Source: Alphaproteobacteria bacterium
Lineage (GTDB): Bacteria > Pseudomonadota > Alphaproteobacteria > UBA6615
Direction of reading: 5' to 3'
DNA: 64,000 nucleotides
Assembly: GCA_021774575.1 (NCBI GenBank)
Contig: JAJFIX010000023.1
Coordinates: forward strand, 4,166-68,165
A model generated the notes under the pieces. That model was given only the letters and a program-made list of their open reading frames with translations. It was not told where the DNA came from and ran no database searches. Each line of letters starts with the position of its first letter. The first letter of the stretch is position 1. Made by a program: the position numbers and the translations under genes. Below, in pieces: positions 9,545 through 39,869 of the stretch.

Positions 9545-9778
9545 TTCGAATTTGTTATTATCACTGAGGTGACGAACTGATATTGGGTATCTGAAATAAC
9601 AGAATACCCAGCAAGGGCTGATCGATGGCAGCCAGCGAGAGCCGCCTCGGCACCAGGGGACATTACCCCATAATTTAGTTGCTGAGAAAGCGCAAATTAG
9701 GGAAAATCGTTGCTATTAGGTCACAAATGGACCTGAAGTGCTGTGGATAGATGTGCTCTGGTTTTCGGGAGGCGGCGG

Positions 9779-11685: not shown

Positions 11686-11842
11686 GTTTTTCTTCCAAAA
11701 TTCCAATAAAGACCATGATTAGGCGGAATAAACGGTAAAATGTTGATGCATGTCAATGTTCCACCCGTATTCGGTCACTACTTTTCAATTATCAATATTG
11801 CCATTGTTCTCTGTTCGAGAGCGCTCCAAAAAGGAGATCCCA

Positions 11843-14616: not shown

Positions 14617-14635
14617 GGCAGGAAAGGGAAAAGCT

Positions 14636-16063: not shown

Positions 16064-16105
16064 ACCGGAATGCTGGTTGATTGGTTCCAATTTGGAGGTA
16101 GGAAA

Positions 16106-16447
16106 ATGAAAAAACTTTTGATCCATGCGGCTTTGGCATTCTTTGTCCTGACGCCGGTTGTCCTGGCGTCAGGGGCAGCAAATGCGGCCGAGCGCGATAT
16201 CACGTTGACTGTTCTCATGACTTGCCCGACGTCCGAACCACCGTTGGTCCGAAAAACGCTGCTTGACGTCAATGGCGTGAGCGAGGTCGCGGTATCCTAT
16301 TCAGACAAAAATGCATATGTGATTTTCGATGATGCGGTGACGAATGAAATGGAACTGATTGCCGCGATTAATGAGATTGGGCTGCGGACGTCACGTGATG
16401 AGGATGGGGGGGATATGGAAGCCATGGATGATATGAGCGAAATGTAA
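16106..16447 (+). CDS. secreted HMA-like (heavy-metal-associated fold) protein with degenerate metal motif and Asp/Met-rich tail
   Basis: GGAGG RBS. Signal MKKLLIHAALAFFVLTPVVLASGAANA. MTCPTS replaces the canonical MTCxxC, followed by VNGVSEVAVSYSDKNAYVIFDD (HMA beta-alpha-beta-beta pattern). C-terminus is DEDGGDMEAMDDMSEM. Confidence 0.55.
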   Translation: MKKLLIHAALAFFVLTPVVLASGAANAAERDITLTVLMTCPTSEPPLVRKTLLDVNGVSEVAVSYSDKNAYVIFDDAVTNEMELIAAINEIGLRTSRDEDGGDMEAMDDMSEM

Positions 16448-16490
16448 AAATTGATCGCTCGGGCTTGAGCAAGAGACACGAGGGCAGAAA

Positions 16491-17660
16491 ATGACAAGTT
16501 TCAAATCAATGATGGTCTTAAGCGCCGGATTTCTCCTTTTGGGTACGGCGGTTGCATTCGCTGTGCGAGAACCAAATGTGTCGCTCGCCGTTAGTGATAT
16601 TGAAAAATATGTGTTCGTTCCCAGTTTGGGGTCGGCCGACATTACGGTGATTGACAGTCGGAATAATTCTGTTGTCGGGACGATTGATCTTGACGAAATC
16701 CCGGACCGGTTGGTCGTGTCTTCCGCCGTCGGCCAGCTTATTGTCAGCAATCTAGAAAGTCGCACCGTTACATTGATCGATATAGAGACCGGCGATGAGA
16801 CTGCCGAGATCGCCCTAGATATAACGCCGCAATCCCTGGTCATGAGCCCCGAGGGGTATCTGGTCGCTGTGAGCGATGTTGATGCCGGCGTCGTCGCCGT
16901 GATTTCGTTGCACCGTGGCGTTGAAGTTTCGAGGATAGACAATCTTTCGGCGCCCTCTGGGTTAACTTTCAGCGATGATGGGTCGTTACTTTATGTTCCA
17001 GATGGTGCGTCAAATTCGATCAAACTTATCGATATCGTCCAAGGTAGGGCGTTTGGGGAGTTACCACTATCTGCTGGCAACCCTGATGGAGTAGGCGACC
17101 CGGAAATGCTCAGCGCCGTCACCAGAAGTGCCAATGGTCGCTTTGGCTTTTGCGCCATCGGTCATGCCGAGGAGCTTGCCATATTTGATTTTGGAACCGA
17201 GCAACGGGTCAAGACGCTCAAATTGGGTAACCAGCCTTCGCGGCCTTTCGGCACCGCGGATGGGCGATATATTATGGTGGCAAACAACGGTGATCGCACC
17301 GTGTCGATTATTGATACGCAGACCTTTGATATTGCCGCAACGCTGCCCGGGGCCGCCGATGTTACAGCAATTAACACCGGTTGGTTTGAGACCGTGGCCT
17401 TCGTCATCAGCGAAAGTGAGGACAAAGCGATCATCCTCGACCTCATGGATTTACGTAAATCTGGTGAGATTGAATTACCGAGTTCTCCCGGTCCAGGTGT
17501 CGTGACTCCCGACGCAGCGACACTTTATGTTGCGCTTAGCGATACCGATAGCGTCGCGGTGATCGATACACGGTCACGCCGGGTGACGGCAATTATCGAT
17601 AATGTAGGAACCCAGCCGCGAGGCGCGACAATGGCGCGAACGAATAATTATTGCCATTAG
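16491..17660 (+). CDS. secreted YVTN-family beta-propeller repeat protein
   Basis: Signal peptide. Repeated motifs of the type LYVPDGASNSIKLIDI, IMVANNGDRTVSIIDTQT and LYVALSDTDSVAVIDTRS. Confidence 0.8.
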   Translation: MTSFKSMMVLSAGFLLLGTAVAFAVREPNVSLAVSDIEKYVFVPSLGSADITVIDSRNNSVVGTIDLDEIPDRLVVSSAVGQLIVSNLESRTVTLIDIETGDETAEIALDITPQSLVMSPEGYLVAVSDVDAGVVAVISLHRGVEVSRIDNLSAPSGLTFSDDGSLLYVPDGASNSIKLIDIVQGRAFGELPLSAGNPDGVGDPEMLSAVTRSANGRFGFCAIGHAEELAIFDFGTEQRVKTLKLGNQPSRPFGTADGRYIMVANNGDRTVSIIDTQTFDIAATLPGAADVTAINTGWFETVAFVISESEDKAIILDLMDLRKSGEIELPSSPGPGVVTPDAATLYVALSDTDSVAVIDTRSRRVTAIIDNVGTQPRGATMARTNNYCH

Positions 17661-17704
17661 GCCCGACACCCTAGGTCAGCAACAAACTCGGGAGGTTGTG
17701 CAAA

Positions 17705-18361
17705 ATGAAAGAAAATTTTCGCCTTGGAATATATGGCAGCCTGGGACTGCTGCTTTGCGCCGCTACCGTAGCCGCCCTGTTGCTGATTAATAATCGCTTG
17801 GCGCCTGAAATCTCGGATCCGCCGCTTGAAATTGATGCGGCAATTATCGACCCAGGGGGACCATTTGCACTGGTCGATCATCAAGGAAAATCGGTAACCG
17901 ACCGTGATTTTCTCGGTCGATATCTACTGGTTAATTTTGGTTATACATTCTGTCCCGACATTTGCCCCACGACGCTCGGCCAAATTACCGTCGCGATGGA
18001 CCTGCTCGGTGAGAATGCGAACAAGGTTCAACCCGTGTTTATCACCGTCGATCCGGAGCGGGACTCAATTGAAGTTTTGGCCCGCTATATGAATTTTTTT
18101 CACCCTCAATTGATCGGCTTGACCGGCTCATCCGACCAGATCGCCAATGTCGCCCGGGTCTATATGGTTCACTACGCCCAGGCCGAGAGGGTCGAAGAGG
18201 CAAGCTATTATTCGGTCGATCACAGTAGCTTCATATACCTCATGGGGCCGGAAGGAGAATTTAGGGACGTCATTGCTTATGGAACTCTACCGCAGGAAAT
18301 GGCGTCGCTCATTGAGCGCCATATTTCAAACGATAGCTCGGCGTCCGGGGACGGCCAGTAA
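17705..18361 (+). CDS. SCO1/SenC family copper chaperone / thiol-disulfide oxidoreductase
   Basis: N-terminal TM anchor, CPDICP motif (FGYTFCPDICPTT), and a conserved downstream His (VDHSSFIYLMGPEG). GGGAGG RBS lies before the ATG at 17705. Confidence 0.9.
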   Translation: MKENFRLGIYGSLGLLLCAATVAALLLINNRLAPEISDPPLEIDAAIIDPGGPFALVDHQGKSVTDRDFLGRYLLVNFGYTFCPDICPTTLGQITVAMDLLGENANKVQPVFITVDPERDSIEVLARYMNFFHPQLIGLTGSSDQIANVARVYMVHYAQAERVEEASYYSVDHSSFIYLMGPEGEFRDVIAYGTLPQEMASLIERHISNDSSASGDGQ

Positions 18362-18414
18362 GGGGAAAGCCAGATAGCCGGATAACCGGGGTAACGAAGA
18401 TTGGAGGTAAATCC

Positions 18415-19194
18415 ATGCCAATGAAAAAGCAAAAAGATCCACTTTGCGGCATGATACTTCATGCAGAGCGTGGCAAATGCGCTTCCTGCGAAGTTCGGGC
18501 ACTCTCAATCTGCGCGCCTCTGGATCGGTCCGCTCTGGAAGTGCTGGCTGACTTGTCGGAGGTGGTAAATTTTAGGAAGGGTGACAGTATCTGCGCCGAA
18601 GGCGATCCGGTGGATTATTTTTTTACCGTGCAGTCCGGGGCACTGAAGACGTGTCGGTTACAGTCGGGGCGCCGTGACCTTGTGACCGGCTTTTTGTTTG
18701 GCGGAGATTTCCTCGGCCTGGCATTCTTTGCCGGGCAAATTGAGGCGGATACTCATTACCCATATGCCGTCAGGGCCTTAAGCAAGGGCCGCCTGTGTCG
18801 GCTGCCAAGACAGGCATTTTCCAAATTCATTGCCGATTATCCGCTTATTGAGAAACAAATTTTGGCAAAAATTTCGTTGAAACTGGAGCAGGCGGAAAAT
18901 CATATCCTGTTGCTTGGCAGAAAGAATGCGCGAGAAAAAATCTCTTCTTTCATTTTGCAACTTGATGACGCGCAGAGATTTGCTCGTCAAAATCTGGAGA
19001 GTGATTTTCAAGGTGTCGATACCGTTGATTTTCCTTTGGCGCGCCATGATATTGCCGATTACCTGGGAATGACTCCCGAAACAGTCAGCCGTGCCTTAAC
19101 TCAGCTGAAGGAAGACGGCTTGATCCGGCAACTCAGCTCACGCTGTGTTGCGCTCGTCCAGCGACAAATGTTGGAAGAGATAGCCGCAGGGTAG
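18415..19194 (+). CDS. Crp/Fnr-family transcriptional regulator, FnrN/FnrL-type with N-terminal Cys cluster
   Basis: N-terminal C11, C22-x2-C25-x7-C33 plus central Cys residues. Contains a cNMP-binding-like beta-roll. C-terminal HTH HDIADYLGMTPETVSRALTQLKEDG carries the E--SR motif used by FNR to read TTGAT half-sites. Confidence 0.9.
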   Translation: MPMKKQKDPLCGMILHAERGKCASCEVRALSICAPLDRSALEVLADLSEVVNFRKGDSICAEGDPVDYFFTVQSGALKTCRLQSGRRDLVTGFLFGGDFLGLAFFAGQIEADTHYPYAVRALSKGRLCRLPRQAFSKFIADYPLIEKQILAKISLKLEQAENHILLLGRKNAREKISSFILQLDDAQRFARQNLESDFQGVDTVDFPLARHDIADYLGMTPETVSRALTQLKEDGLIRQLSSRCVALVQRQMLEEIAAG

Positions 19195-19220
19195 ACGGGG
19201 GGTTAGGTGTTCAAAAAGAA

Positions 19221-19260
19221 GCCCCGCCAGCTGGATGAAGCTGACGGGGCCTGTATTTTT
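19221..19260. terminator. bidirectional rho-independent terminator between convergent genes
   Basis: GCCCCGCCAGC-tggatgaa-GCTGACGGGGC hairpin, flanked by caaaaagaa on the left and ctgtattttt on the right. It sits between the fnr-type gene (+) and the cytochrome c gene (-). Confidence 0.6.
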
Positions 19261-19275
19261 GTGATCGATACGGGT

Positions 19276-19641
19276 TTATTGAGTGGCTAGAAATTCAACA
19301 ATGTCGGCGGCGTCTTGGGCATCTCCGACGCCGGGAAAGGCCATGCTGGTGTCGGGTACGAGTACTTGAGCCTCGGCAATGTACAGCAATAGCGTCTCTT
19401 CATCCCAGGTGAGACCAGATCCTTTCATCGCGTCGGAATATTCGAAATCGGCGAGGTCGGCCGCGGGTCGTCCGATAACACCGGCCAGGCTCGGCCCGAT
19501 GATATTTTCGCCAGCCGTCAAAGAATGGCACGCAGCGCAGACCTGAAACAGGTCTTCACCCCGCGCGGCGTCTTGGGCCAGTATAGGCGTTCCGCTCGCC
19601 AGCACTATTGCGGTCGCCATTATTGATATTGTTGCTTTCAT
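19276..19641 (-). CDS. class I c-type cytochrome (c2/c550-like), secreted
   Basis: Signal MKATISIMATAIVLASGTPILA, haem motif CAACHSL, and a distal Met region (DTSMAFPGV). RBS GGAAGGAA. Confidence 0.9.
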   Translation of the reverse strand: MKATISIMATAIVLASGTPILAQDAARGEDLFQVCAACHSLTAGENIIGPSLAGVIGRPAADLADFEYSDAMKGSGLTWDEETLLLYIAEAQVLVPDTSMAFPGVGDAQDAADIVEFLATQ

Positions 19642-20329: not shown

Positions 20330-20531
20330 GGGCTGTGTACTGTTCTGAGTTGTGGCGAGACCGTGGCTTGGACATCGGGGGAATCAATGAATATCGAAAC
20401 ACTGCCTTCAGCGGCAGTGTGCTGCTCTTGGCAAGGTATAACCTGTCGGGGTTGCGCAAATGTGGGGGCGTGCTTTGGACGATAACCGTTTTCGATCGCG
20501 GTTATTTGGCCGGCCGTTTTCTTGCCGATTA

Positions 20532-23500
20532 ATGCAATACAGAAATGACGGGCCTTCGAGGTCATTTCTGCATTTGGCTGCAGTCGCGCTCTTTTCTGCG
20601 TCACTTTTGGGCTTTGGCGGAGATGCTGTTGCGCAGAGCGTGGATTGGGTGCTCAACCTCAACGACACCGGCTCCGATCCGACCGCCGCCGGTGGAACCA
20701 TCACCTACAATATCAACGTTTCCAATAACGGGGCCGACCCAGCACCAGTGACGACGATCGATCTCGACGTGCCCGCAGGGACAACGCTCGCGGCGACGAG
20801 CGGGACGATCACCGGGTGCGCACCGGTCCCGACTGCCGGGCCTGCCACCGTTACCTGTACGATTCCGGCATTGGCGGCGGGGGGGGCTGTCGATCTGTCA
20901 GCCGATGTCGTTCCGGTCGCTTCGGGAACTGTGACCATCGGCGCGCACGTGCCGACCACCGTGGGCGCAGTAACCGATTTCGATACGGCTAACAACGATC
21001 AAACTGAAAACACGACGATTACCGCAGGGGCGGATGTCGAATTGCTGATTTCCGGGCCAGCCACAGCGGCTTCGGGCAGCCAGATTAGTTACAGCTTTGA
21101 TGCAACCAATAACGGCCCCGATCCGGCGTCAAACCTGACCCTGAGTTTTCCTATACCGACGGGGGTTTCCAACATCACCGAACCGCCGGGCTGTTCCCTG
21201 TCTGCGAGCACCTATACTTGTGCGGTCTCAGGGCCTCTCGCGCCGGGTGCCAGTGTCTCGCTGGTTTTTGACGTTCAGATTTCCGCTGCCTCCGGGTCGA
21301 CGGTGACGCCGGTCGCAACTATCTCCGTCGGCTCGCCAGTTGATCCGCTGGCCAGCAACAACACCGACAGTCTCGACACAGATATCACAGCGGGAACCGA
21401 TCTTCGTATCACCAAATCGCGGAGCCCATCGGGCACGCTTCTGGTTGGCGATACCGTAACCTTCACCCTTGCTGGAAGCTACACCGGTGACGACCCCAGC
21501 GGGATCACAATAACCGACACCATCCCGGCAATCTACGCCATCCAATCGGTTACGCCGTCTGCCGGTAGCGGGTTTGCCTGCACCGTGACCTTGCAGGATA
21601 TTTCCTGCTTGCGGGCGACAGGTGCTGGTCCGGGGGGCAATGTTTCCTTGGGCTCTATCTCCATTGTGGCAACAGCCATAACGGCAGGATCGGCTGTTAA
21701 TACAGCGACCATCGTCGCGACAGGCCCTGTTGATTCAAACCTCTCAAACAATAGCGACACCGACGGCGGTGCGACAATCCAAGATCCAACTGTCGATCTG
21801 CGGGCGAACAAGTCCGGTCCAAATCCGCCGCTCATTGTTGACGGCAATAGTTATGATTTTTCGATCAGCGCTACCAATATCGGCAATGCAGATTTTTTCG
21901 GTACGATCGTTCTAACCGATAGTCTGCCGGCGGGGTTGACGGCGACCGGATTTGTCTTGAACGGATGGACTTGCGCGCCGGTTCCCGCAGCAGTGTTGCC
22001 CATTGCGGGCCCAGCGGTGATTGAATGCACGCAAATTTTTACCTCCGGAAGTCCACTCGCCTCCGGTGCGACGACTTCGAGTGCCGTTATACAGACGACG
22101 GCCACTGCGTCGGGAACCATCACCAACAGTGTCACGGTCTCTTCCCCCGATGCAAATATTGCAGACAGCAATTCTGGCAATGACGTTGCGACCACGACCG
22201 TTACCGGCAGCACACTCGGCGCCTCGGCCGATATTCTCGTCGAGAAGACGGCTAGCCTTGCCACACTGCCGGCAGGCGATGTGCAGACCTTTACCCTTCG
22301 TGTGGTCAATAACGGTCCCATCGCTTCAGCCAACATTACTCTCACCGACAGTCTGTCCGGATTGATCAACAATTCGGTGGGGCCGACCGGTGCTGGGTTG
22401 ATCAGCGTCGACGACACTTCGTCGGTAGGGTTGGCTACGGGGCTGACATGTTCCACCGCCTCGTCGGGGGGCAGCTCTCGCCTCTTGACCTGTACCATCG
22501 TGAATTTGCCGGTCTGTGTGGGCGCCGACTGCCCGATCATCACTGTGCAAGTTCGCCCCGGCGGCAATGGCGGTTCGCGGACCAACACAGCCGACGCTAT
22601 TTCTTCGGTCACCGTCGATTCCGATCTGACGAATAATTCGGCCAGCGCTACTTTCACAGTAGAGCCCCGCGCCGATATGACCGTGACCAAGGTCTCGTCG
22701 CCGTCTCCGGCTACCGCCGGGCAAGATCTGACCTATGTTCTCACCGCGCGAAATATCAGCAATGGTCTCAGTGCTGCAGCGAGTGTGACGATAACCGATA
22801 CGCTGCCGAACAATGTAACTTTTGTCTCCGCATCGCCCTCGGCTGGGAGCTGCACGACCACGCCGATACTCAATTCGACGACCGGTGCTGGCAACAATAC
22901 GGTGAGCTGTTCTCTTGGCACGATCAATAACGGCGCCCAGCGGACGGTGACGATTGTCACGCGGCCGAACTTCGTGACCCGCGGCACCACTCTTTCCAAC
23001 AATGTGACCGTTGCCACGACGACGATCGAGACCGATGGCACCAACAATTCGGCGATCAATCTGACCCCGGTTGTGGTTCCTGTGCTCGACCTTCTGGTAA
23101 ACAAGACCGATAGCGTCGACCCTGTCGCGGTTGGGGATGACACGGTCTTTTCTATTTCGGTGCAGAATATTGGCCCATCGGCGGCTGAAAACGTCGTTTT
23201 TACCGATGTTATGCCGCCGTCTCGGCTGAGCTTCCAATCTGTCATCGTCTCAGCGGGGGGGAGCTGCCTAACGGTTCCTGCGGTCGACAGCTTCGGGCAA
23301 ACCCTTGAATGCGACTTTCCGCGGCTTCTTGCGGGCACCTCGGAGACAATAACGGTCACCATGCGGGGCACCGAAAAGGGTACAGTATTCAACACAGCCG
23401 ATGTGACGTCCGATGAGGTTGTCGCCGGATTTGATACCAACACCACCAACAATAATGTAATGGAGCAGACGACGGTCCGTTCCAAGGCAGACCCCGAAGT

Positions 23501-26500
23501 AGTGAGCAAAGTGGCTTCGGTTAATCCGGTCAATTTGCGCGACAATTTCAATTTTGTCATTACGGTTCGCAACAATTCCGGTGCGGGTCTGGCTGAAGCT
23601 GATGATGTCCTGGTTTCCGACACGCTACCGACGGGTATGGTTTTGACGGGGCCGCCAACCGTCACAGCCGGGCTGGCCAATGTCACAGGCTCAACCTGTA
23701 CTGGGCTTGCCGGTGAGACGTCGTTTACGTGCGACCTTGGGACATTTACCGGAGGAGGAACGGCGGAAATCACCGTGCCGGTCGAAATTACCTCGGTGAG
23801 CTCTAACCCGCAGACTATTGTTAACACGGCGTCGATCACGACCTCATCGCTTGATGTCAATTCGGCGAACAATACGAACTCGGGTTCGGTCGATGTGAAC
23901 TCTTCGTCAATCTCTGGCAGCCTCTTTCGCGATTTTACGGACGACGGTGCGATCACGGCTGGAGACACCGGGATCGGCGCTGTGACGATGACGCTCACCG
24001 GTACCAGTGCCGATGGCGCCGCAATTTCGCGGACCGTTGCGACGGCAGCCGATGGGACATTCACATTTGCCCTGCTGCCCGAGGGCAACTATACGATTAC
24101 ACGCGGCACACCTTCGGAGCCTAATCTGGTAGACGGGACCGACACGCCGGGGACTGCCGGCGGAACAGTCAGCGCGCCGATCACGATCGCCGGTATCTCG
24201 CTGGGCGGGAATACGGCCGCAGCGAATTATCTCTTTGCGCTGATCCCCCAGGCCTCTATCGGCATTGCCAAGACAGTGCAGTCGGGGCCGACACCCAATG
24301 CAGACGGGTCTTACAATGTTACTTTCCGGCTGACCGTCGAAAATTTGAGCCTTGAGGCCTTGGAGAACATTGTAGTGGACGACGCCCTTGCCGGCGCGTC
24401 CCCTTTGTTTGGGGCCTTCAGTGCCCTGGCAACCCCGGCGACGGATCCGCTGGCGCGCGGGAGTTACACCATCCTGGCGGCACCTTCGGGAAGTTGCGGC
24501 GGTTTGCAAGCTGGGTTCGACGGTAACGCCGCACAAACAGTGGCCACCGGTTTTGGGCTAGCCATCGGCGCCACCTGCACCATCGACCTGATACTTCGTG
24601 TGCAACCCAGTGTTCCGTTCCCGCCGGTTCTGGCCTCGGGCGGGCGGTACGAGAACCAAGCCACCGTCGATGGGCAAGGCGCTGTCACCGGCCAAACTTC
24701 GGCCACCAACGCGCAACTTGCCGACAGTTCAGATAATGGCGTCAACCCCGATCCAAACAGTAATAGCCAGGCCAACGAAGCGGGCGAGAACGATCCGACG
24801 CCGGTTGATCCGGTCTATGTGCGGTCCGTCGGATTGGTGAAGACGGTCGATACCGGCGCCCTTTCAACACCGGCGGTCGCAGGCGATATTTTGACCTTTG
24901 GCTTCACGGTGACCAATACCGGTGACGTGACGTTAACCGGTCTGACACTAGCGGATCCGCTGCCCGGCATTTCGGTCTCGGGCGGGCCGATTGCGAGCCT
25001 GACACCGGGCGCGTCGGACAGCCTAACCTTTACCGCGACCTATACGCTCACCCAGGCCGATGTCGACGCCGGGCAGGTGGTGAACCAGGCCACGGTTTCC
25101 GGTATTGATCCATTTGACGGGACGGTGACCGATCCATCGGGTACGACGACCACCAATGACACGCCCCTGACGACGACGCTTACGCCGGGACCGGCGATTG
25201 GGCTGGTTAAGACCGCCAATGCTTCGGGGCTTTCAAGCCCGTCGGTTGTTGGAGAGCGGATCACCTATTCGTTCGCCGTCACCAATACGGGCAATGTGAC
25301 GCTGTCGAATGTAACGCTAACCGATATCCTGCCGGGGATCGTAATCTCGGGCGGTCCAATCGCAACGCTGGCGCCGGGTGCGACCGACGCTACGACTTTC
25401 ACCGCGACCTACGACATCCTGCAATCGGATATCGACGCGGGCCAAGTATCGAACCAAGCAACCGCGACCGGCTCGCCTCCATTTGGCGCGGATGTAAACG
25501 ATTTATCGGGCACGACGACAGGCAACGATACGCCAACCGTCTCGTCGGTCACCCAGGCCCCGGCGATTGATCTTCAAAAGACGGCCGATGACAGCGCCTT
25601 TCTGGTGACCAGCGCGGTACCCGGCGACACCTTGCCCTTTACTTTCCAGGTTACCAATATCGGCAACACGACTCTAACCGGTATCACGATAACAGATCCG
25701 TTGCCGGGGATTGTCATCACCGGTGGACCGATTGCAAGTCTCGCGCCCGGGGCGACGGATAGCACTACGATTTCTGGCAGTTACTCGATCACTGCCGCCG
25801 ACATCCTCGCGGGGCAAATAGATAATACGGCGACAACGACCGGCACCTACACAGACTCCGGCGGTAGTCCCCAGACCGTGACCGACACCGATAGTGCGAC
25901 AGGTATTGTCGTTGCCATCGACGCCAACCCGGAAATCTTTCCGCCATTCACCACCGATGGCGGCACGACGACATCAATGCTTGCCTCCGATAGCGTGGCC
26001 AACCAGCCGGCGACCCTGGCGAATGTGACGATTTCGGTCGTCACCACTGACCCGGAATTGACCCTTGATCCGGCAACGGGACTGATCACGCTCGCTCCTG
26101 GAAATCCGGCAGGTGAGTATTTCGTGACGTATCAGATTTGCTCGACTGCCAGTCCAGCGGTTTGCGACACGGCGATCGAAACCGTGACCCAGAGTGCGAT
26201 CCCCTCGATTGAAGCCACGAAAACGCAAGTCTTGACCGACAATGGCGATGGAATCGACGGCGTTGGCGACACGCTCACCTATACGATCACCGTGGAGAAT
26301 ACCGGCAATGTTCCGGTCGAAAACATTGCCCTGACCGACACGCTCACCACGCTCAACACCGGCTTTGGATTAACGCTCGACGGCGGTCCGACTTTCGTCT
26401 CCGCAAGTTCCGGGTCCCTCGAAGGTGATCTGGCGATTGGCGAAACGGCCACCTATACGGCAAGTTTCACGCTGACTATTGATGCCTTAATCGGTGGTGG

Positions 26501-29500
26501 CACGTCGAACACAATAACTGTCGACGCCTTGCCGGTTTTTGGCCCGGCCGTGCCGGGCACGCCGGCGCCGATCCTCGATGTTTCCGATGACGGCGACGAT
26601 GGCGATGGAAATACGACCGAAGATCCCACCCAATTCCCGATCGCGTCTTCACTGGCCGCGAGCGGGCTCACGGTGACAAAGACCACCCCACGAGGGATCG
26701 TCGAACGGGGGCAGATCGTGCCGTATACGATTGCCATCCGGAACGACAATCCGGTCGTTTCGGGCCAGCTCGATATCGTTGATGTTTTGCCGCCGGGGTT
26801 CCTCTACTTGGATGGATCGGCAACCCTAGACGGCACGCCATTCTCGGTCGATGTTGCTGGACGGGTCGTCACTTGGCCCGACGTGCCGGTGCCGCCCCTT
26901 ACCACCGTCACGGCGACCTTATCGGCCCGCATCACCACCGGTGCGCCGTCCGGCGAATTGGTCAACCGGGCGAGTGCGCGCAATCCGAACGACAATACCC
27001 CCCTCGCGCCGGTCGCCACCGCGACGGTCCGCATTCTTCCCGAGGCGGTCTTTGATTGTGGCGACGTGATCGGCAAAGTGTTCGATGATCGTGATCGCGA
27101 CGGTTATCAGAACCCGGATAGGTCGGAGCCGGGTATCCCGGGTGTTCGGTTGGTGGGGATTGACGGCACGACAATTGTGACCGATGAGTTCGGCCGGTTT
27201 CACGTGCCCTGTGCGATGCTGCCGGATGATCGCGGCACAAATTTCATTTTGAAAATCGACCCCCATTCATTGCCCGCCGGTTATGGGATGACGTCGGAAA
27301 ATCCGCGGATCGTCCGGTTGACTCGCGGCAAACTGACGGAAATGAACTTTGGCGCGACGGCCGAAAACATTGTGCGCATCGATCAGAACGCCCGTGTTTT
27401 TGTGCCCCAATTTGGTGGGCAATTCGACCTCATTGCGGCGCGCCCAGTCGGGCTTTCGGCCTTGGTCGACCAGATCGCGCTGGACCCACAACGCCCGACC
27501 GAAATTCGCGCGATGGCGGCCGGTATTGATATTCGGTTCGACACCCTGGACGAACGCCGCTTCCTGAATGTCACGACTATGGGTCTTCGCGCCGCCTACC
27601 GGGCCGGCGAGACGGTCATATTTCGGACCTCGTCCAATTATCCGCGCTTTATTGTTCGATCTGAAATCCGCATCCGCGATCGGTCCCACCGACGGCTGAT
27701 TGCCGTATTGCCGGTACTGCCGAATGGCCAAATGCCATGGATGGTCCCCCAAAGTGGGACGGGCGAATTCGATTATGTGTTGCGGGTCTATGACGGGCGG
27801 GGGCGTTACGATGAAACCGAGCCGCTTTCCCTGGTGCGCACGGCCCGTTCTTTTAACACCCATGAAACGGTGCGTGGTGCCGCCATAGCGCCGGGCGAGG
27901 GCGAGGATCGTACTGCCATTCGCAACATACCGATCCGGGGTGGTCTGGTGACGGCGGCGGGAGAAGGTTTGGCCCCGGGCACCCGCGTCTTGGTTATGAG
28001 TGAGGAAGTGACCGTCGATCTTTCCGGTCGATTTGTGGTCAGCCGGATCTTGCCGGTTGGGGAGCATGAGGTCGCCGTCGATGTTGCCCATGCCGGTCAG
28101 GTATCGCGGGTCGTGCGCAACATCGAAGTTCCGGCGCTGACAGCATTCAGTGTCGGGATCGTCGATTTGACCATCGGCAAGCAGCTTGAGAACGACCTGG
28201 CCGATGCGGATCCAGATTATGATGATACCTATGCTGAAGGAAGGCTGGGCTATTACGGCACTGCGATTCTTCCCGACGGCACCCGTGTCACCATGTCGGT
28301 CGATACCGGGAACGGCTCGCTCAAAGACGCGTTCCGCCGTCTCGACGACCGGGATCCGCGTGACGTTCTCCAACGGCTCGACGAGGACGATCTCTATCCG
28401 ACATATGGTGACGATAGCACCGCATATGACGATGCGCCGACGTCGGGACGGGCATATTTTCAGATCGAACGTGGCGGGGCCAGATTAACCTGGGGCGATT
28501 TCCAATCGGCGATTGCCGGGCCGGAATTTCTGGCCGGAAAGCGAAATTTATACGGCGTGGACCTGAATTATACGTCACCCGTGGTCACGACCCGTGGCGA
28601 TGCCCGCGCTCAATTATCCGCTTACTTCGCCCAACCCGATACGTTGCCGGCACGGGACATAATGCGGGGCACCGGCGGTTCGGTGTATTTTTTATCACGC
28701 CAAGATATCAATAATGGTTCGGAAACGGTGACAGTGCAGATCCGGGATCCGCAAACAGGGCGCATCATTTCGACGACAACATTGGTGGCGGACCTCGATT
28801 ATGACATCAATAATATTCAAGGCGTCATTGTCCTGGCGGCGCCACTGGCTTCGTCGACGACTGACGGCGGATTGATATCGTCGGGTGTCGTTGGAGAATT
28901 CGACGTCAACCTGGTGGTTCAATATGAATATACGCCGACGGCTGGCGACTTGGATGGCGCCTCGGGTGCCGGACGGGTCGAGTTATGGGCGCGGAACAAT
29001 TTGCGCCTGGGCATTACCGGCATGCGCGAGAATACCGGCGTGGCCGATCAAGATATGTTCGGTGCCGATCTGCGCTGGAACCTTGGCGAGACAAGCTATG
29101 TTGAGACAGAGTTTGCGCAGACGGTTGGCCCCGGCTTTGGGCGCACGCTCTCGGCCAATGGCGGGCTGACCCTGGATATGACGGGGCCGGGAACCGGCAC
29201 GCGCGCCGACGCGCTCCGGGTCGATGGTCATCTCAATTTCGCCGAATTAAATTTCGGGCTGGAAGGGCATCTGGATTTCTACTACGAGCGCAAGGACGCT
29301 GGATTTGCCACGTTAAACGAGGATATTGCCGAAGACCGAGAGTTGGTCGGCCTCTCTTCGGAGTTGGCGCTTTCACCCCGATTGCGACTTGGCATCGATG
29401 TCGAAGATTTCCAGAAGCAAGGGCGCGAGCATACGCAGACGAGCGAAGTGCGGGCGTCTTATAGTCTAAACAGAGTTTTGACCCTGTCCGGCGCCGTCGA

Positions 29501-30791
29501 ATATCTGGATCAGCGGGTGGCGGGTGACCCGAATGAAACCGGCCAACGGACTGATGCAGCGGTGCGGCTAGACTATGTGCCTAGCCCGGATTTGCGGCTC
29601 TATGGTTTTGGACAGTCGACGGTTGATGTCTCCGGCCAACTTCAAGACTATGACCGTGGCGGCTTTGGCTTCAATGCGCGGGTCAGCGAGAAGGTTGATC
29701 TGGCGCTGGAGGCCTCCGACGGCTCAACCGGTCTTGGTGGTAACGCCAGACTGACCTACCGGCCGACCCCGGATGACGAGGTTTATCTTGGCTATGTCCT
29801 CGATCCAAACCGCACGGCGCCGACTAACAATCTGAGCGGTGCGGCGGATAACGGCACCTTTGTAATGGGTCGGCGGGTCCAGCAAACGGACTCAATGTCC
29901 TATTATGGTGAGCATAAATGGGATCTCTGGGGCGACCGGCGATCGATCGCGCGGACATTTGGTGTGTCCTATACGCCGGATGCGCGCTGGTCTGTTTCCG
30001 GTGCGATTGAAAACGGCGAGGTACGCGATGAAATCAACGGTGACTTTGACAGGACCGCTGTCTCTCTGGGCCTCGGTTATGGGGGCGAGGGTCGCGTAGA
30101 CGCAAGGTTGCGAATTGAATACCGGGTGGAAGATGGCGAAACGATCACCCAAGATCGGGAGACCTGGGCGCTGCTCGGCGGGCTCAATTACCGCGTCAGT
30201 GATGACTGGCGCGCGCTTGCCAGTGTCGACACGCATATCTCGCAAAGTGACCAGAGCGCATTTCTCGATGGCGAATTTGTTGAAGCGATCATTGGCTACG
30301 CCTACCGGCCGGTCGACAATGAACGACTGAACGTCCTTTTCAGATATCGCTACCTCTATGATTTGCCCGGACCCGATCAGGTGACGGCCGACGGATCGAC
30401 CGACGGGCCGTCGCAGGTCAGTCATGTGCTGTCGGTTGACGGTAACTATGACTTGACGCGGAAGCTAACCGTCGGCGCCAAGTATGGGTACCGCCTGTCC
30501 CAAACCGCTCCGCGCGGCACCCAGGTGTTTAGTGATGCAACGGCGCAACTGGCCGTCCTACGAGCTGACTGGCACGTCGTACATAAATGGGACATTCTTG
30601 CCGAGGGACGAACCCTGATTTCCGAGGAAATCGACACCACGGAATACGGAGCCCTGACCGGCGTCTATCGCCATCTTGGGAACAGTCTGAAGATTGGGCT
30701 GGGATACGAGTGGGGGCAAGTTTCCGACGACATGGCGAATATCGACTATCAGGGCCAGGGTGTTTTTCTCAACTTGCTGGGTAAATTTTAA
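20532..30791 (+). CDS. giant surface repeat protein (DUF11 / Cna-B / SdrD-B-like Ig-fold repeats) with large C-terminal beta-barrel-like region
   Basis: One uninterrupted ORF (20460-30791). Signal-like MQYRNDGPSRSFLHLAAVALFSASLLGFGGDAVAQS begins at the ATG at 20532, and 20460 is the alternative. There are many repeats of the type xxYTxxVxNxGPxxAxxVxxTDxLPxG, SdrD-B-like segments (FRDFTDDGAITAGDTGIGAVTMTLTG...; GKVFDDRDRDGYQNPDRSEPGIPGVRL), and three exact-period 123-aa repeats. The last ~770 aa are rich in alternating-hydrophobic strands and end in LLGKF (terminal Phe, OMP-type). Confidence 0.9.
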   Translation: MQYRNDGPSRSFLHLAAVALFSASLLGFGGDAVAQSVDWVLNLNDTGSDPTAAGGTITYNINVSNNGADPAPVTTIDLDVPAGTTLAATSGTITGCAPVPTAGPATVTCTIPALAAGGAVDLSADVVPVASGTVTIGAHVPTTVGAVTDFDTANNDQTENTTITAGADVELLISGPATAASGSQISYSFDATNNGPDPASNLTLSFPIPTGVSNITEPPGCSLSASTYTCAVSGPLAPGASVSLVFDVQISAASGSTVTPVATISVGSPVDPLASNNTDSLDTDITAGTDLRITKSRSPSGTLLVGDTVTFTLAGSYTGDDPSGITITDTIPAIYAIQSVTPSAGSGFACTVTLQDISCLRATGAGPGGNVSLGSISIVATAITAGSAVNTATIVATGPVDSNLSNNSDTDGGATIQDPTVDLRANKSGPNPPLIVDGNSYDFSISATNIGNADFFGTIVLTDSLPAGLTATGFVLNGWTCAPVPAAVLPIAGPAVIECTQIFTSGSPLASGATTSSAVIQTTATASGTITNSVTVSSPDANIADSNSGNDVATTTVTGSTLGASADILVEKTASLATLPAGDVQTFTLRVVNNGPIASANITLTDSLSGLINNSVGPTGAGLISVDDTSSVGLATGLTCSTASSGGSSRLLTCTIVNLPVCVGADCPIITVQVRPGGNGGSRTNTADAISSVTVDSDLTNNSASATFTVEPRADMTVTKVSSPSPATAGQDLTYVLTARNISNGLSAAASVTITDTLPNNVTFVSASPSAGSCTTTPILNSTTGAGNNTVSCSLGTINNGAQRTVTIVTRPNFVTRGTTLSNNVTVATTTIETDGTNNSAINLTPVVVPVLDLLVNKTDSVDPVAVGDDTVFSISVQNIGPSAAENVVFTDVMPPSRLSFQSVIVSAGGSCLTVPAVDSFGQTLECDFPRLLAGTSETITVTMRGTEKGTVFNTADVTSDEVVAGFDTNTTNNNVMEQTTVRSKADPEVVSKVASVNPVNLRDNFNFVITVRNNSGAGLAEADDVLVSDTLPTGMVLTGPPTVTAGLANVTGSTCTGLAGETSFTCDLGTFTGGGTAEITVPVEITSVSSNPQTIVNTASITTSSLDVNSANNTNSGSVDVNSSSISGSLFRDFTDDGAITAGDTGIGAVTMTLTGTSADGAAISRTVATAADGTFTFALLPEGNYTITRGTPSEPNLVDGTDTPGTAGGTVSAPITIAGISLGGNTAAANYLFALIPQASIGIAKTVQSGPTPNADGSYNVTFRLTVENLSLEALENIVVDDALAGASPLFGAFSALATPATDPLARGSYTILAAPSGSCGGLQAGFDGNAAQTVATGFGLAIGATCTIDLILRVQPSVPFPPVLASGGRYENQATVDGQGAVTGQTSATNAQLADSSDNGVNPDPNSNSQANEAGENDPTPVDPVYVRSVGLVKTVDTGALSTPAVAGDILTFGFTVTNTGDVTLTGLTLADPLPGISVSGGPIASLTPGASDSLTFTATYTLTQADVDAGQVVNQATVSGIDPFDGTVTDPSGTTTTNDTPLTTTLTPGPAIGLVKTANASGLSSPSVVGERITYSFAVTNTGNVTLSNVTLTDILPGIVISGGPIATLAPGATDATTFTATYDILQSDIDAGQVSNQATATGSPPFGADVNDLSGTTTGNDTPTVSSVTQAPAIDLQKTADDSAFLVTSAVPGDTLPFTFQVTNIGNTTLTGITITDPLPGIVITGGPIASLAPGATDSTTISGSYSITAADILAGQIDNTATTTGTYTDSGGSPQTVTDTDSATGIVVAIDANPEIFPPFTTDGGTTTSMLASDSVANQPATLANVTISVVTTDPELTLDPATGLITLAPGNPAGEYFVTYQICSTASPAVCDTAIETVTQSAIPSIEATKTQVLTDNGDGIDGVGDTLTYTITVENTGNVPVENIALTDTLTTLNTGFGLTLDGGPTFVSASSGSLEGDLAIGETATYTASFTLTIDALIGGGTSNTITVDALPVFGPAVPGTPAPILDVSDDGDDGDGNTTEDPTQFPIASSLAASGLTVTKTTPRGIVERGQIVPYTIAIRNDNPVVSGQLDIVDVLPPGFLYLDGSATLDGTPFSVDVAGRVVTWPDVPVPPLTTVTATLSARITTGAPSGELVNRASARNPNDNTPLAPVATATVRILPEAVFDCGDVIGKVFDDRDRDGYQNPDRSEPGIPGVRLVGIDGTTIVTDEFGRFHVPCAMLPDDRGTNFILKIDPHSLPAGYGMTSENPRIVRLTRGKLTEMNFGATAENIVRIDQNARVFVPQFGGQFDLIAARPVGLSALVDQIALDPQRPTEIRAMAAGIDIRFDTLDERRFLNVTTMGLRAAYRAGETVIFRTSSNYPRFIVRSEIRIRDRSHRRLIAVLPVLPNGQMPWMVPQSGTGEFDYVLRVYDGRGRYDETEPLSLVRTARSFNTHETVRGAAIAPGEGEDRTAIRNIPIRGGLVTAAGEGLAPGTRVLVMSEEVTVDLSGRFVVSRILPVGEHEVAVDVAHAGQVSRVVRNIEVPALTAFSVGIVDLTIGKQLENDLADADPDYDDTYAEGRLGYYGTAILPDGTRVTMSVDTGNGSLKDAFRRLDDRDPRDVLQRLDEDDLYPTYGDDSTAYDDAPTSGRAYFQIERGGARLTWGDFQSAIAGPEFLAGKRNLYGVDLNYTSPVVTTRGDARAQLSAYFAQPDTLPARDIMRGTGGSVYFLSRQDINNGSETVTVQIRDPQTGRIISTTTLVADLDYDINNIQGVIVLAAPLASSTTDGGLISSGVVGEFDVNLVVQYEYTPTAGDLDGASGAGRVELWARNNLRLGITGMRENTGVADQDMFGADLRWNLGETSYVETEFAQTVGPGFGRTLSANGGLTLDMTGPGTGTRADALRVDGHLNFAELNFGLEGHLDFYYERKDAGFATLNEDIAEDRELVGLSSELALSPRLRLGIDVEDFQKQGREHTQTSEVRASYSLNRVLTLSGAVEYLDQRVAGDPNETGQRTDAAVRLDYVPSPDLRLYGFGQSTVDVSGQLQDYDRGGFGFNARVSEKVDLALEASDGSTGLGGNARLTYRPTPDDEVYLGYVLDPNRTAPTNNLSGAADNGTFVMGRRVQQTDSMSYYGEHKWDLWGDRRSIARTFGVSYTPDARWSVSGAIENGEVRDEINGDFDRTAVSLGLGYGGEGRVDARLRIEYRVEDGETITQDRETWALLGGLNYRVSDDWRALASVDTHISQSDQSAFLDGEFVEAIIGYAYRPVDNERLNVLFRYRYLYDLPGPDQVTADGSTDGPSQVSHVLSVDGNYDLTRKLTVGAKYGYRLSQTAPRGTQVFSDATAQLAVLRADWHVVHKWDILAEGRTLISEEIDTTEYGALTGVYRHLGNSLKIGLGYEWGQVSDDMANIDYQGQGVFLNLLGKF
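24831..25937 (+). repeat. three in-frame tandem repeats of 369 bp (123 aa) inside the giant gene
   Basis: Repeat starts GLVKTVDTG (24831), GLVKTANAS (25200) and DLQKTADDS (25569) are spaced exactly 369 nt apart. The shared body is ...TNTGNVTL(T/S)xxTLxDxLPGIxISGGPIAxLAPGAxDxxTFTATYxxxQxDxDAGQxxNQATxxG. A fourth, diverged unit occurs near 26210. Confidence 0.85.
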
Positions 30792-30965
30792 TACTCGACG
30801 GAATTGGGGGTGGTGCCCAAATTAGGAGCAAAAGCCATATTGTGGTTAATTATTAGTCATTAATAGGTAGGCTTCACATCAAAATTTCGTTGCAATTTTG
30901 AGTGTAATATAAAATATATAATAAGAACAATGAGTTATATGATTTCTCCCGGGGCAAGAGAAAAC

Positions 30966-39855: not shown

Positions 39856-39869
39856 TTGATGGATTTTTG

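What the first reader, a model, noticed from the sequence alone, without database searches (positions are those of the whole stretch)
20532..30791. Approximately 3,400-aa repeat adhesin-like protein ending in a very large (~770 aa) beta-barrel-like domain
The architecture is as follows:
- a signal peptide
- about 2,600 aa of Ig-like repeats (DUF11-type, Cna-B/SdrD-B-type, three 123-aa repeats)
- a region from about 28480 rich in amphipathic beta-strands, ending LNLLGKF with a terminal Phe as in BAM substrates

A C-terminal anchor fits type Va logic, but the putative barrel is roughly three times the size of a 12-strand autotransporter translocator. No TpsB, usher or T1SS genes are adjacent. 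This may represent a poorly described self-anchoring surface-display architecture.
Basis: partly seen in the sequence, partly recalled or inferred. Interest (0 to 1): 0.55.

Follow-up and report, generated by a model that had tools for sequence, protein, structure and literature searches.

The report
Giant adhesin fused to huge barrel
This 3,419-residue gene joins a long surface-adhesin stalk to an unusually large, roughly 40-strand outer-membrane barrel that close relatives encode as two adjacent genes, which points to an uncharacterised and widespread way of displaying giant adhesins.

Summary
The ORF is real (20532-30791, + strand; 3,419 aa). It has a Sec-type signal peptide and about 17 Ig-like CLIPPER(DUF11)/CLIPPER_2/SdrD_B domains. 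Twelve of these carry Lys-Asp-Asn isopeptide triads.

The C-terminal module is two beta-sandwich domains plus a very large beta-barrel. The AlphaFold2 model shows about 880 aa and about 40 strands by DSSP count. All fold matches are outer-membrane barrels, and none superposes globally. The protein ends in Phe.

In about 75 related alphaproteobacterial loci, the stalk protein and the roughly 1,200-aa barrel protein are two abutting genes, and the barrel protein has its own signal peptide. The window lacks about 0.47 kb. The missing stretch covers half of a degenerate OmpA-like connector, the stop codon, the spacer, the signal peptide and the barrel protein's N-terminus.

Distant relatives, at 31-38% barrel identity, are naturally fused proteins of 2,100-6,900 aa. 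Some carry 2-3 canonical OmpA domains between stalk and barrel.

Best reading: the barrel is a dedicated outer-membrane anchor, and probably the conduit, for the adhesin, with a periplasmic connector. It belongs to none of the autotransporter, TPS, usher, T1SS or T9SS families. The function is inferred, and whether this particular fusion works is unproven.

The parts
20532..30791 (+). Whole fused gene: 3,419 codons plus stop. An alternative upstream ATG at 20460 is not supported by homology.
   Evidence: Alignment to the Roseobacter sp. S98 stalk protein starts at aa 8.
20532..20636 (+). Sec-type signal peptide (aa 1-35, ...GDAVA|QS)
   Evidence: Read directly from the sequence. The naturally fused relatives also have one N-terminal signal-like segment.
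20637..27041 (+). Fibrillar stalk (aa 36-2170) of Ig-like CLIPPER (DUF11), CLIPPER_2 (DUF7507) and SdrD_B-type domains. Twelve domains have Lys...Asp...Asn triads, and most have one closely spaced Cys pair.
   Evidence: Pfam and NCBIfam. Only 14 Lys occur in 2,170 aa, and 12 sit in the [VL]xK[TS] motif at domain starts. Triad spacing is K->D 34-39 and K->N 81-128. For comparison, the solved CLIPPER domain 9IFR has K715/D748/N806 (PMC12617251).
27042..27356 (+). Last SdrD_B/CnaB-like domain of the stalk (aa ~2171-2275), conserved in all relatives
27339..27509 (+). Remnant (first strand and first helix only) of the roughly 95-aa OmpA-like connector that ends the stalk protein in relatives. The fusion breakpoint lies at about aa 2320-2327 (nt ~27490-27512).
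   Evidence: The connector HMM matches only positions 1-47 of 101 in the window (aa 2270-2319), but all of it in relatives. The junction alignment is. pLDDT is about 25 here.
27525..27842 (+). Beta-sandwich domain 1 of the barrel-protein module (aa 2332-2437)
   Evidence: AF2 strands at model residues 63-168, pLDDT 75-93.
27912..28130 (+). Beta-sandwich domain 2, CarboxypepD_reg-like (aa 2461-2533)
   Evidence: AF2 strands at model residues 192-264. Relatives show weak Glucodextran_B and DUF3869 hits at the same place.
28140..30788 (+). Giant outer-membrane beta-barrel (aa 2537-3419, ~880 aa). DSSP lists about 42 strand segments, mean length 12 residues, with short loops on both faces. My estimate is 38-42 strands.
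28683..28835 (+). Small all-beta domain inserted between barrel strands (aa 2718-2768). It contains the most conserved family motif, GTGGSVYFL, and could be a plug or cap.
   Evidence: AF2 short strands at model residues 449-499. Motifs come from the family alignment and the pattern scan.
30765..30788 (+). C-terminal beta-signal-like strand FLNLLGKF with terminal Phe
   Evidence: K1149 and F1150 are nearly invariant in 52 homologues.

Best explanation
The gene encodes a Sec-exported fibrillar adhesin stalk covalently fused to its own dedicated outer-membrane partner.

**The stalk.** It has about 17 Ig-like CLIPPER/CLIPPER_2/SdrD_B domains, 12 of them with isopeptide triads.

**The partner.** It has two beta-sandwich domains followed by a barrel of about 40 strands and 880 residues that ends in a BAM-type C-terminal Phe.

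**The normal form.** In the lineage this window belongs to (Rhodobacterales-like), the system is two abutting genes:
- Gene A is signal peptide, stalk, then a degenerate OmpA-like connector.
- Gene B is signal peptide, a short Cys-pair N-terminal segment, two beta-sandwiches, then the barrel.

**What happened here.** An in-frame deletion of about 0.47 kb removed the second half of the connector, the stop codon, the spacer, B's signal peptide and about 65 mature residues of B. A single 360-kDa polypeptide remains.

**Proposed mechanism (inferred, not shown).**
1. Sec exports the chain.
2. BAM inserts the barrel.
3. The stalk reaches the cell surface through the very wide barrel lumen.
4. The connector stays in the periplasm as a stopper and cell-wall tether. 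In relatives, 1-3 canonical peptidoglycan-binding OmpA domains sit beside it.
5. In split systems the connector would dock A onto B. Here the covalent link replaces that docking.
For: **Shown: the fusion and the two-gene norm.**
- aa 8-2326 match the 2,378-aa stalk protein of Roseobacter sp. S98 at 60% identity. aa 2317-3419 match residues 101-1204 of the adjacent 1,204-aa barrel protein at 56% identity.
- The two-gene layout is seen in Roseobacter and Defluviimonas.
- It holds in every one of about 75 loci with enough upstream DNA. Each has a complete connector in a different frame directly before the barrel ORF.
- No third gene is conserved in the flanks.
- 572+ species in the genome collection carry the barrel gene.

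**Shown: functional coupling (Rosetta stone).**
- At least 15 of the best 150 cluster representatives are single proteins of 2,134-6,889 aa with the barrel at the extreme C-terminus.
- Three of them were scanned against Pfam, and all three have DUF11/SdrD_B stalks.
- Twelve of the 15 retain a near-complete connector; in three others only a partial (P0242), weak (P0289) or no significant match (P0253) was found.
- They contain no X runs, and most start with a signal-like N-terminus.
- They are scattered in the barrel tree at 31-38% identity to the window. The window sits inside an all-split clade.

**Shown or supported: a periplasmic junction.**
- Relatives carry 2-3 canonical OmpA (PF00691) domains immediately N-terminal to the barrel module, with or without a stalk.
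- The connector aligns to these OmpA domains (hhalign probability 78.8%, P 1.7e-5).

**Shown: the barrel.**

**Supported: the gene looks alive.**
- The window sequence is included in all of the roughly 130 invariant columns of the 52-sequence alignment.
- Its divergence from outgroups (33.8%) lies within the range of split relatives (32.7-37.9%).

**Context.** CLIPPER domains are described as stalks of extracellular fibrillar adhesins. One Gram-negative example carries an OmpA-like anchor (PMC12617251).
Against: - No experiment or structure shows that the stalk is surface-exposed or that it passes through the barrel.
- Model coordinates could not be inspected. Strand number, barrel closure and lumen occupancy are inferred only from the DSSP list and from the failure of smaller barrels to superpose.
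- The window's fusion is unique. None of 83 loci has it; the one apparent fusion, L031, is an N-run scaffold gap.
- No protein in the 5.8-billion-sequence set spans the junction. Two metagenome scans found nothing.
- Unlike 12 of the 15 natural fusions, which keep a near-complete connector, the window cuts the connector domain in half, and the remnant is predicted to be disordered.
- The barrel has short loops on both faces, so an unplugged lumen would make the outer membrane leaky. What closes it is unknown.
Confidence: 0.6

Rival explanations
1. The family is as described, but this particular fused ORF is a recent loss-of-function deletion or an assembly or sequencing artefact. The organism really has, or had, two genes, and the 3,419-aa protein is either not made or does not work.
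For: - The junction is unique among 83 loci.
- It is absent from the protein and metagenome collections.
- The deletion halves a conserved connector that 12 of the 15 natural fusions keep near-complete.
- The remnant has pLDDT of about 25.
- The window barrel is slightly more diverged than its nearest neighbours, 33.8% versus 35-36% identity to outgroups.
Against: - The deletion is in frame, and about 1,100 codons downstream stay open.
- The window sequence is included in all invariant columns of the family alignment.
- Its divergence lies within the family range.
- Independent natural fusions lack B's signal peptide and N-terminal segment. Covalent linkage is therefore tolerated, and those deleted parts are dispensable once the proteins are linked.
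Confidence: 0.25
2. The Ig-like chain is not exported. It stays in the periplasm as an envelope scaffold. The OmpA-linked giant barrel is mainly an outer-membrane-to-cell-wall tether or large porin, as with Deinococcus SlpA or the periplasmic DUF11 protein OmcB of Chlamydia.
For: - The connector and OmpA domains place the stalk's C-terminal end in the periplasm.
- Many relatives are OmpA x2-3 plus barrel with no stalk at all.
- That OmcB is a DUF11 protein is from my own knowledge.
Against: - From my own estimate of domain size, a chain of about 17 (window) to more than 40 (6,889-aa relatives) Ig domains would be tens to hundreds of nm long. That is far longer than a periplasm is wide.
- Isopeptide-bonded CLIPPER stalks are characteristic of extracellular fibrillar adhesins (PMC12617251).
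- This reading gives no reason for the strict pairing and repeated fusion of stalk and barrel.
Confidence: 0.12
3. It is an ordinary member of a known outer-membrane secretion family: a classical or inverse autotransporter, a two-partner secretion pair, a chaperone-usher system, or a T1SS or T9SS substrate.
For: - The domain order (signal peptide, passenger, C-terminal barrel ending in Phe) resembles type Va.
- The two adjacent genes in relatives resemble type Vb.
Against: - Pfam and NCBIfam give no hit to Autotransporter, ShlB/POTRA, TPS, intimin-type barrel, usher, RTX or T9SS CTD models.
- A profile search of PDB sequences finds nothing significant.
- TM-scores to all solved barrels are <=0.29.
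- The barrel is more than three times the size of a type V translocator.
- No accessory genes are nearby or conserved.
Confidence: 0.03

Closest known systems
Classical (type Va) autotransporters
   Same: - N-terminal Sec signal
- Large N-terminal passenger
- C-terminal beta-barrel ending in an aromatic residue, for BAM
- No accessory genes needed nearby
   Different: - About 40 strands rather than 12, and no PF03797 match
- No alpha-helical linker immediately before the barrel
- An OmpA-like periplasmic connector and two beta-sandwich domains lie between passenger and barrel
- Passenger and barrel are separate genes in most relatives
Two-partner secretion (type Vb, TpsA/TpsB)
   Same: In close relatives, a giant exoprotein gene and an outer-membrane barrel gene lie side by side. 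Each product has its own signal peptide.
   Different: - No POTRA domains or 16-strand Omp85 barrel in the partner
- No TPS domain in the exoprotein
- The gene order here is cargo first, then barrel
- The cargo's C-terminus, not its N-terminus, carries the partner-proximal domain
Inverse autotransporters (type Ve, intimin/invasin)
   Same: A stalk of Ig-like repeats is displayed from a barrel that has a periplasmic peptidoglycan-binding domain next to it.
   Different: - The polarity is reversed: intimin runs LysM, 12-strand barrel, Ig passenger
- The barrel family and size are different
LapA/LapE-type retention of giant T1SS adhesins
   Same: The idea is shared: a folded periplasmic module acts as a stopper that keeps a giant repeat adhesin threaded in an outer-membrane channel.
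   Different: - LapA uses T1SS (no Sec signal), and the stopper is N-terminal
- Its channel is a TolC-like trimer
- No T1SS genes, RTX repeats or LapG/LapD are seen here
SprA, the 36-strand T9SS translocon (largest solved single-chain barrel)
   Different: - No sequence relationship
- Different phylum, with no T9SS components or CTD signals
- SprA is capped with a lateral opening and has long loops, whereas this model has short loops on both faces
Deinococcus radiodurans SlpA (30-strand barrel with a cell-wall-binding domain)
   Same: It is a large barrel covalently joined to a periplasmic cell-wall-binding module. It is among the best structural matches.
   Different: - SLH plus coiled coil rather than OmpA-like domains
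- Trimeric
- No adhesin stalk
- No sequence similarity
CLIPPER (DUF11) fibrillar adhesins, e.g. Acinetobacter silvestris B9T28_05395 with a C-terminal OmpA-like anchor (PMC12617251)
   Same: - The same stalk domains with isopeptide triads
- A signal peptide
- An OmpA-like domain at the C-terminal end of the stalk
   Different: That paper describes no outer-membrane barrel partner. Here the stalk is paired or fused with a giant barrel, and the connector has lost the canonical OmpA motifs.
Predicted 38- and 40-strand OMBB superfamily of Solan et al. 2021 (PMC8346858, families 002/003)
   Same: These are bioinformatically predicted single barrels larger than any solved. The strand number matches my count.
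   Different: Identity could not be tested. The main text gives no accessions or taxa, and the supplements are not held. That paper assigns no function and makes no link to adhesins.

Membership tests
CLIPPER (DUF11) fibrillar adhesin stalk | Tandem PF01345/PF24346 domains above the Pfam cut-off | tested here: met
   DUF11 scores 422.9 bits over 13 stretches. DUF7507 scores 286 bits over 4 stretches. TIGR01451 gives 10 repeats.
CLIPPER (DUF11) fibrillar adhesin stalk | Lys-Asp-Asn triad positioned for an intramolecular isopeptide bond | tested here: met
   12 domains have K...D(x)LP...NxAxV at the expected spacing. This is sequence-level only; bond formation cannot be tested here.
Alphaproteobacterial stalk-associated giant barrel family (uncurated; P0001-P0120) | Full-length homology of the two beta-sandwiches plus barrel | tested here: met
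   E = 0, 47-59% identity, 94-100% coverage to more than 100 proteins. The window sequence is included in all invariant columns of the alignment.
Alphaproteobacterial stalk-associated giant barrel family (uncurated; P0001-P0120) | Separate gene with its own signal peptide and Cys-pair N-terminal segment, directly after a stalk gene that ends in a complete connector | tested here: not met
   The window lacks the signal peptide, the N-terminal segment and half of the connector. Stalk and barrel lie in one ORF.
Type Va autotransporter | C-terminal 12-strand Autotransporter beta-domain (PF03797) preceded by a pore-spanning helix | tested here: not met
   No Pfam hit. AF2 shows about 40 strands and no helix adjoining strand 1.
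Two-partner secretion (type Vb) | TpsB with POTRA domains and a 16-strand Omp85/ShlB barrel; TpsA with an N-terminal TPS domain | tested here: not met
Inverse autotransporter (type Ve) | N-terminal LysM plus a 12-strand intimin-type barrel, followed by C-terminal Ig passenger domains | tested here: not met
   The domain order is the opposite, and there are no matching Pfam hits.
Chaperone-usher | 24-strand usher (PF00577) with plug, plus adjacent chaperone and pilin genes | tested here: not met
T1SS RTX/LapA-type adhesin | No Sec signal, C-terminal RTX/T1SS signal, adjacent ABC/MFP/TolC genes | tested here: not met
   An N-terminal Sec-type signal is present, there are no RTX hits, and there are no T1SS genes.
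T9SS translocon SprA | SprA homology (36-strand barrel) with T9SS partners and CTD-bearing cargo | tested here: not met
   No sequence hit. Foldseek TM is <=0.17. The taxon is alphaproteobacterial.
OmpA-like (PF00691) peptidoglycan-binding domain, for the connector | beta-alpha-beta-alpha-beta fold with the conserved peptidoglycan-binding motifs (GHTD..., NRRV) | tested here: inconclusive
   - No Pfam hit for the connector.
- hhalign to family OmpA domains gives probability 78.8%.
- The binding motifs are absent.
- In the window only the first half of the domain remains.
Solan et al. 2021 giant OMBB families 002/003 | Membership of the published 38- or 40-strand families | not testable with these tools
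   Accessions are not in the main text, and the supplements are not held.

The most novel reading that the evidence does not exclude
The adhesin-plus-giant-barrel module may be a distinct, so far unnamed outer-membrane export and anchoring pathway. It occurs as split genes in most Rhodobacterales and Hyphomicrobiales, and as a fused gene here and in scattered other lineages. In this reading, a single-chain barrel of about 40 strands, larger than the 36-strand SprA, lets a Sec-exported, possibly already folded and disulfide-bonded Ig-domain stalk pass to the surface. An OmpA-like periplasmic module then holds the stalk in place. The window's deletion fusion would be a natural experiment showing that the non-covalent docking parts are dispensable once the two proteins are covalently linked.
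Probability: 0.35. Interest if true: 0.85.

Novelty: new variant of a known kind. Interest (0 to 1): 0.62.

Why it matters
- **Barrel size.** If the model is right, this family contains the largest single-chain membrane barrels known. That is a challenge for BAM-mediated folding.
- **A possible export route.** The family would supply the missing route for a broad class of Gram-negative CLIPPER/DUF11 fibrillar adhesins, whose passage across the outer membrane has not been explained.
- **Scale and neglect.** The family is large: 4,272 cluster representatives at E <= 1e-3, and more than 570 species in the genome set. It is abundant in marine roseobacters and rhizobia, which live by surface attachment. 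It has no curated Pfam or NCBIfam model. I found no experimental paper on it in the held library.
- **Value of split and fused forms.** Having both gives an unusually clean argument that the two proteins work together. It also defines which segments are likely to form their interface.

Tried and rejected
- **DNA tandem repeats.** Tandem Repeats Finder found none in 20400-30800. The repeats exist at protein level only.
- **Promoter and terminator scans.** Counts were at chance level, so they were not used.
- **Exact look-up.** The protein and one neighbour are not in the 15-billion-protein collection. The source organism is therefore not represented. The best barrel identity found is 59%.
- **Search across the junction.** A protein search with 301 aa spanning the junction found only proteins that cover one side or the other. 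An exact 36-nt junction pattern and a degenerate peptide scan of JGI metagenomes both found nothing.
- **L031.** It looked like a second fusion (a 4,086-aa open frame) but is a run of N across a scaffold gap.
- **PDB searches by sequence.** The single-sequence search found nothing. The profile search found one hit at E = 0.17.
- **PADLOC.** No hit.
- **afdb50 Foldseek.** The library was not available.
- **Solan et al. supplements.** They are not held, so the link to their 38/40-strand families stays open.
- **Literature.** Searches for DUF11 with roseobacter genera, and for fibrillar adhesin with OmpA-like and barrel, returned nothing relevant.
- **Third conserved gene.** I looked in the flanks of 80 loci and found none.
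- **Relaxed selection on the window barrel.** The first comparison was biased by how I chose the far set. An independent outgroup shows the window within the family range.
Full report
**1. Observation**

The window has one long open frame on the + strand, 20460-30791. Homology to related proteins starts eight residues after the ATG at 20532. I therefore number the protein from there, giving 3,419 aa.

- The N-terminus (MQYRNDGPSRSFLHLAAVALFSASLLGFGGDAVA|QS) looks like a Sec signal peptide. This is by inspection only.
- Pfam finds 13 DUF11 stretches (423 bits) and 4 DUF7507 stretches (286 bits). It also finds weaker CARDB, DUF7619, DUF7927 and SdrD_B matches.
- NCBIfam finds ten TIGR01451 repeats and an isopeptide-forming fimbrial domain.
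They are not DNA tandem repeats.
- The protein ends ...GVFLNLLGKF.
- Upstream neighbours are cytochrome c, cupredoxin, DsbD-like, SCO1 and Crp/Fnr genes. Downstream are the urea ABC transporter and urease. No secretion genes are present.

Only the domain boundaries need correcting (see section 4).

**2. The stalk**

DUF11 and DUF7507 were renamed CLIPPER and CLIPPER_2 in 2025. They were shown to be CnaA-like Ig domains that form an intramolecular Lys-Asn isopeptide bond catalysed by an Asp, and that make up the stalks of fibrillar adhesins (PMC12617251).

- The first 2,170 residues here contain only 14 lysines. Twelve sit in a [VL]xK[TS] motif at the start of a domain.
- Each of these twelve Lys has an Asn in an NxAxV-like motif 81-128 residues on. 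Eleven of the twelve also have an Asp in a D-x-[LMI]-[PTS] motif 34-39 residues on. The solved domain has K715/D748/N806.
- Most domains also have one pair of cysteines 5-27 residues apart. The last pair (C2176/C2227) is 51 residues apart.

This is a typical extracellular stalk. At about 4 nm per domain, it would be roughly 70 nm long (my estimate).

**3. The key finding: the ORF is a gene fusion**

A search with the C-terminal 1,150 aa found 1,092 proteins. The best 120 are all stand-alone proteins of 1,082-1,226 aa from Rhodobacterales, at 47-59% identity. They carry names such as 'outer membrane beta-barrel protein' or 'hypothetical protein'.

In Roseobacter sp. S98 and Defluviimonas aquaemixtae, that protein is encoded 11 nt downstream of a 2,378- or 2,386-aa DUF11 protein.

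Mapping of the window protein:
- aa 8-2326 align to residues 10-2327 of the S98 stalk protein at 60% identity.
- aa 2317-3419 align to residues 101-1204 of the S98 barrel protein at 56% identity.

Relative to the two-gene form, the window therefore lacks:
- the last ~51 residues of the stalk protein;
- the stop codon and spacer;
- the barrel protein's signal peptide;
- about 65 mature N-terminal residues, including a conserved Cys pair and a GFSISID strand.

This is an in-frame loss of about 0.47 kb. The breakpoint is near aa 2320-2327 (nt ~27490-27512).

A scan of one genome per species found at least 572 loci with the barrel gene, in Rhodobacterales and Hyphomicrobiales. In every one of the 80 best loci with enough upstream DNA, a complete connector domain lies in a different frame directly before the barrel ORF. 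The only apparent exception, L031, is a run of N. No third gene is conserved in the flanks.

**4. The barrel module**

Pfam gives only sub-threshold OMP_b-brl matches for the window's C-terminus. Homologues do pass the cut-offs for OMP_b-brl, BBP2, OmpA_membrane, DUF481 and DUF7840. No PDB sequence is related.

AlphaFold2 with a 52-sequence alignment gave a usable model, with pLDDT 76.9 and pTM 0.71. Its parts are:
- a disordered first 49 residues, which are the connector remnant;
- two beta-sandwich domains (aa 2332-2437 and 2461-2533);
- from aa 2537 to the C-terminus, an uninterrupted series of about 42 long strands. Mean strand length is 12 residues, and the connections are short on both sides;
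- one small inserted beta domain (aa 2718-2768).

Thirty of the 42 strands alternate hydrophobic and polar residues.

Structure comparisons:
- Foldseek likewise returns almost only such barrels; the two exceptions in the list are human ApoB100 entries. TM-scores are at most 0.29.

I read this as one very large barrel whose radius differs from every solved one, with 38-42 strands. I could not inspect the coordinates, so closure and the exact count remain unverified.

SprA, with 36 strands, is the largest solved barrel (10.64898/2026.03.07.710327). Solan et al. predicted a superfamily with 38 and 40 strands (PMC8346858). I could not test whether it is this family.

**5. Fused and split forms across the superfamily**

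A profile search of 1.84 billion cluster representatives found 4,272 relatives at E <= 1e-3 and 1,473 at E <= 1e-30.

Among the best 150, at least 15 are single proteins of 2,134-6,889 aa with the barrel module at the extreme C-terminus.
- The three I scanned against Pfam have DUF11, SdrD_B and DUF7507 stalks.
- None contains X runs, and most start with a signal-like segment.
- Named examples come from Deferrisoma and from a Pseudomonadota MAG.
- They lack the barrel protein's signal peptide and N-terminal segment. Twelve of the 15 keep a near-complete connector.

In a neighbour-joining tree of the barrel region, these fusions are scattered among other forms, at 31-38% identity to the window. 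The window sits inside an all-split clade. Fusion and fission have therefore happened repeatedly. The window's fusion is an independent, derived event.

Repeated fusion of the two proteins is strong evidence that they act together.

**6. The junction is periplasmic in character**

- Many mid-length relatives (1,300-1,730 aa) carry two or three canonical OmpA (PF00691) peptidoglycan-binding domains directly before the beta-sandwiches and barrel.
- Several fused giants run stalk, connector, OmpA x2-3, barrel.
- One metagenomic locus, L084, runs SdrD_B, OmpA, OmpA, barrel.
- The connector has no Pfam match. It does align to these OmpA domains by hhalign, with probability 78.8% and P 1.7e-5.

I regard the connector as a probable degenerate OmpA-like domain. 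This is moderately supported.

**7. Mechanism**

Shown:
- the pairing of stalk and barrel;
- the repeated fusions;
- the barrel fold;
- the OmpA-type domains at the junction.

Inferred:
- After Sec export and BAM insertion of the barrel, the stalk reaches the surface through the wide lumen.
- The connector and OmpA domains remain in the periplasm as a stopper and cell-wall tether.
- In split systems, the connector docks on the barrel protein's N-terminal segment. These are exactly the parts that the natural fusions (N-terminal segment) and the window (both) have lost.

This resembles type Va in domain order, type Vb in gene pairing, intimin in having a peptidoglycan-binding neighbour, and LapA/LapE in the stopper idea. 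Every defining feature of those families that I could test was not met.

Open problems:
- what closes such a wide pore;
- what drives export;
- whether the domains cross folded or unfolded.

**8. Is the window's own fusion functional?**

For:
- The deletion is in frame, and about 1,100 codons downstream remain open.
- The window sequence is included in all invariant columns of the family alignment.
- Its divergence from an independent outgroup (33.8%) lies within the range of split relatives (32.7-37.9%).
- Natural fusions show that B's own signal peptide and N-terminal segment are dispensable when the two proteins are linked.

Against:
- The junction is unique.
- It halves the connector, which 12 of the 15 natural fusions keep near-complete.

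I put about 25% on a dead gene or an assembly artefact.

**9. Novelty and verdict**

The stalk is a known kind of protein. The barrel family has no curated model. I found no experimental or descriptive paper linking it to adhesins in the held library. The barrel alone may already have been predicted in 2021.

I class the finding as a new variant of a known kind: barrel-anchored surface display. There is a substantial chance that it deserves to be treated as a separate pathway.

Interest is 0.62. The interest attaches to the family more than to this one fused copy.

Noticed in passing
window 8849-9544, 9779-10576, 10607-11341 (- strand): Three tandem paralogous genes each encode an MlaC-like (PF05494) periplasmic lipid-binding protein. 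The triplication is unusual.
   Followed up: no
window 39867-41072 (+): A single 401-aa ORF carries UreE_N, UreE_C and UreF. A His-rich UreE tail runs straight into UreF. This is an apparent ureE-ureF fusion, and so a second fused gene in this window.
   Followed up: partly
window 13345-19641: This cluster encodes the following:
- a cupredoxin fused to two cytochrome c domains;
- a DsbD-like membrane protein;
- a cytochrome d1/YNCE-like beta-propeller;
- SCO1/SenC;
- a Crp/Fnr regulator;
- a small cytochrome c.

It looks like a copper and respiratory maturation cluster. The Crp/Fnr gene ends about 1.3 kb upstream of the giant gene.
   Followed up: no
window 11750-13240 (+): A 496-aa ORF has no Pfam match.
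   Followed up: no
L031 (uncultured Rhodobacterales MAG), ~9,700-9,850: An apparent 4,086-aa stalk-barrel fusion is caused by a run of N (a scaffold gap) across the gene boundary. This is a warning for automated detection of such fusions.
   Followed up: yes
L084 255-5097; proteins P0235, P0224, P0261, P0239, P0287: Relatives carry 2-3 canonical OmpA peptidoglycan-binding domains directly before the giant barrel and have no Ig stalk. These look like outer-membrane-to-cell-wall tethers with a huge pore. They may represent the ancestral form of the module.
   Followed up: partly
split barrel proteins, residues ~34-100 (e.g. P0012, P0025, P0009): A conserved N-terminal segment (CxxxxxPxPxxC ... 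GFSISID ... VAGAP) occurs only in split-form barrel proteins. It is absent from all fused forms. It is a candidate docking site for the stalk protein's connector.
   Followed up: partly
window aa 2718-2768 (nt 28683-28835) and aa ~2620-2635 (nt ~28389-28436): The two most conserved family motifs are GTGGS[VIA]YFL and DxYP[TV]YGDD. The first lies at the start of a small inserted beta domain. The second lies in a low-confidence acidic loop, not in barrel strands. Their role is unknown.
   Followed up: no
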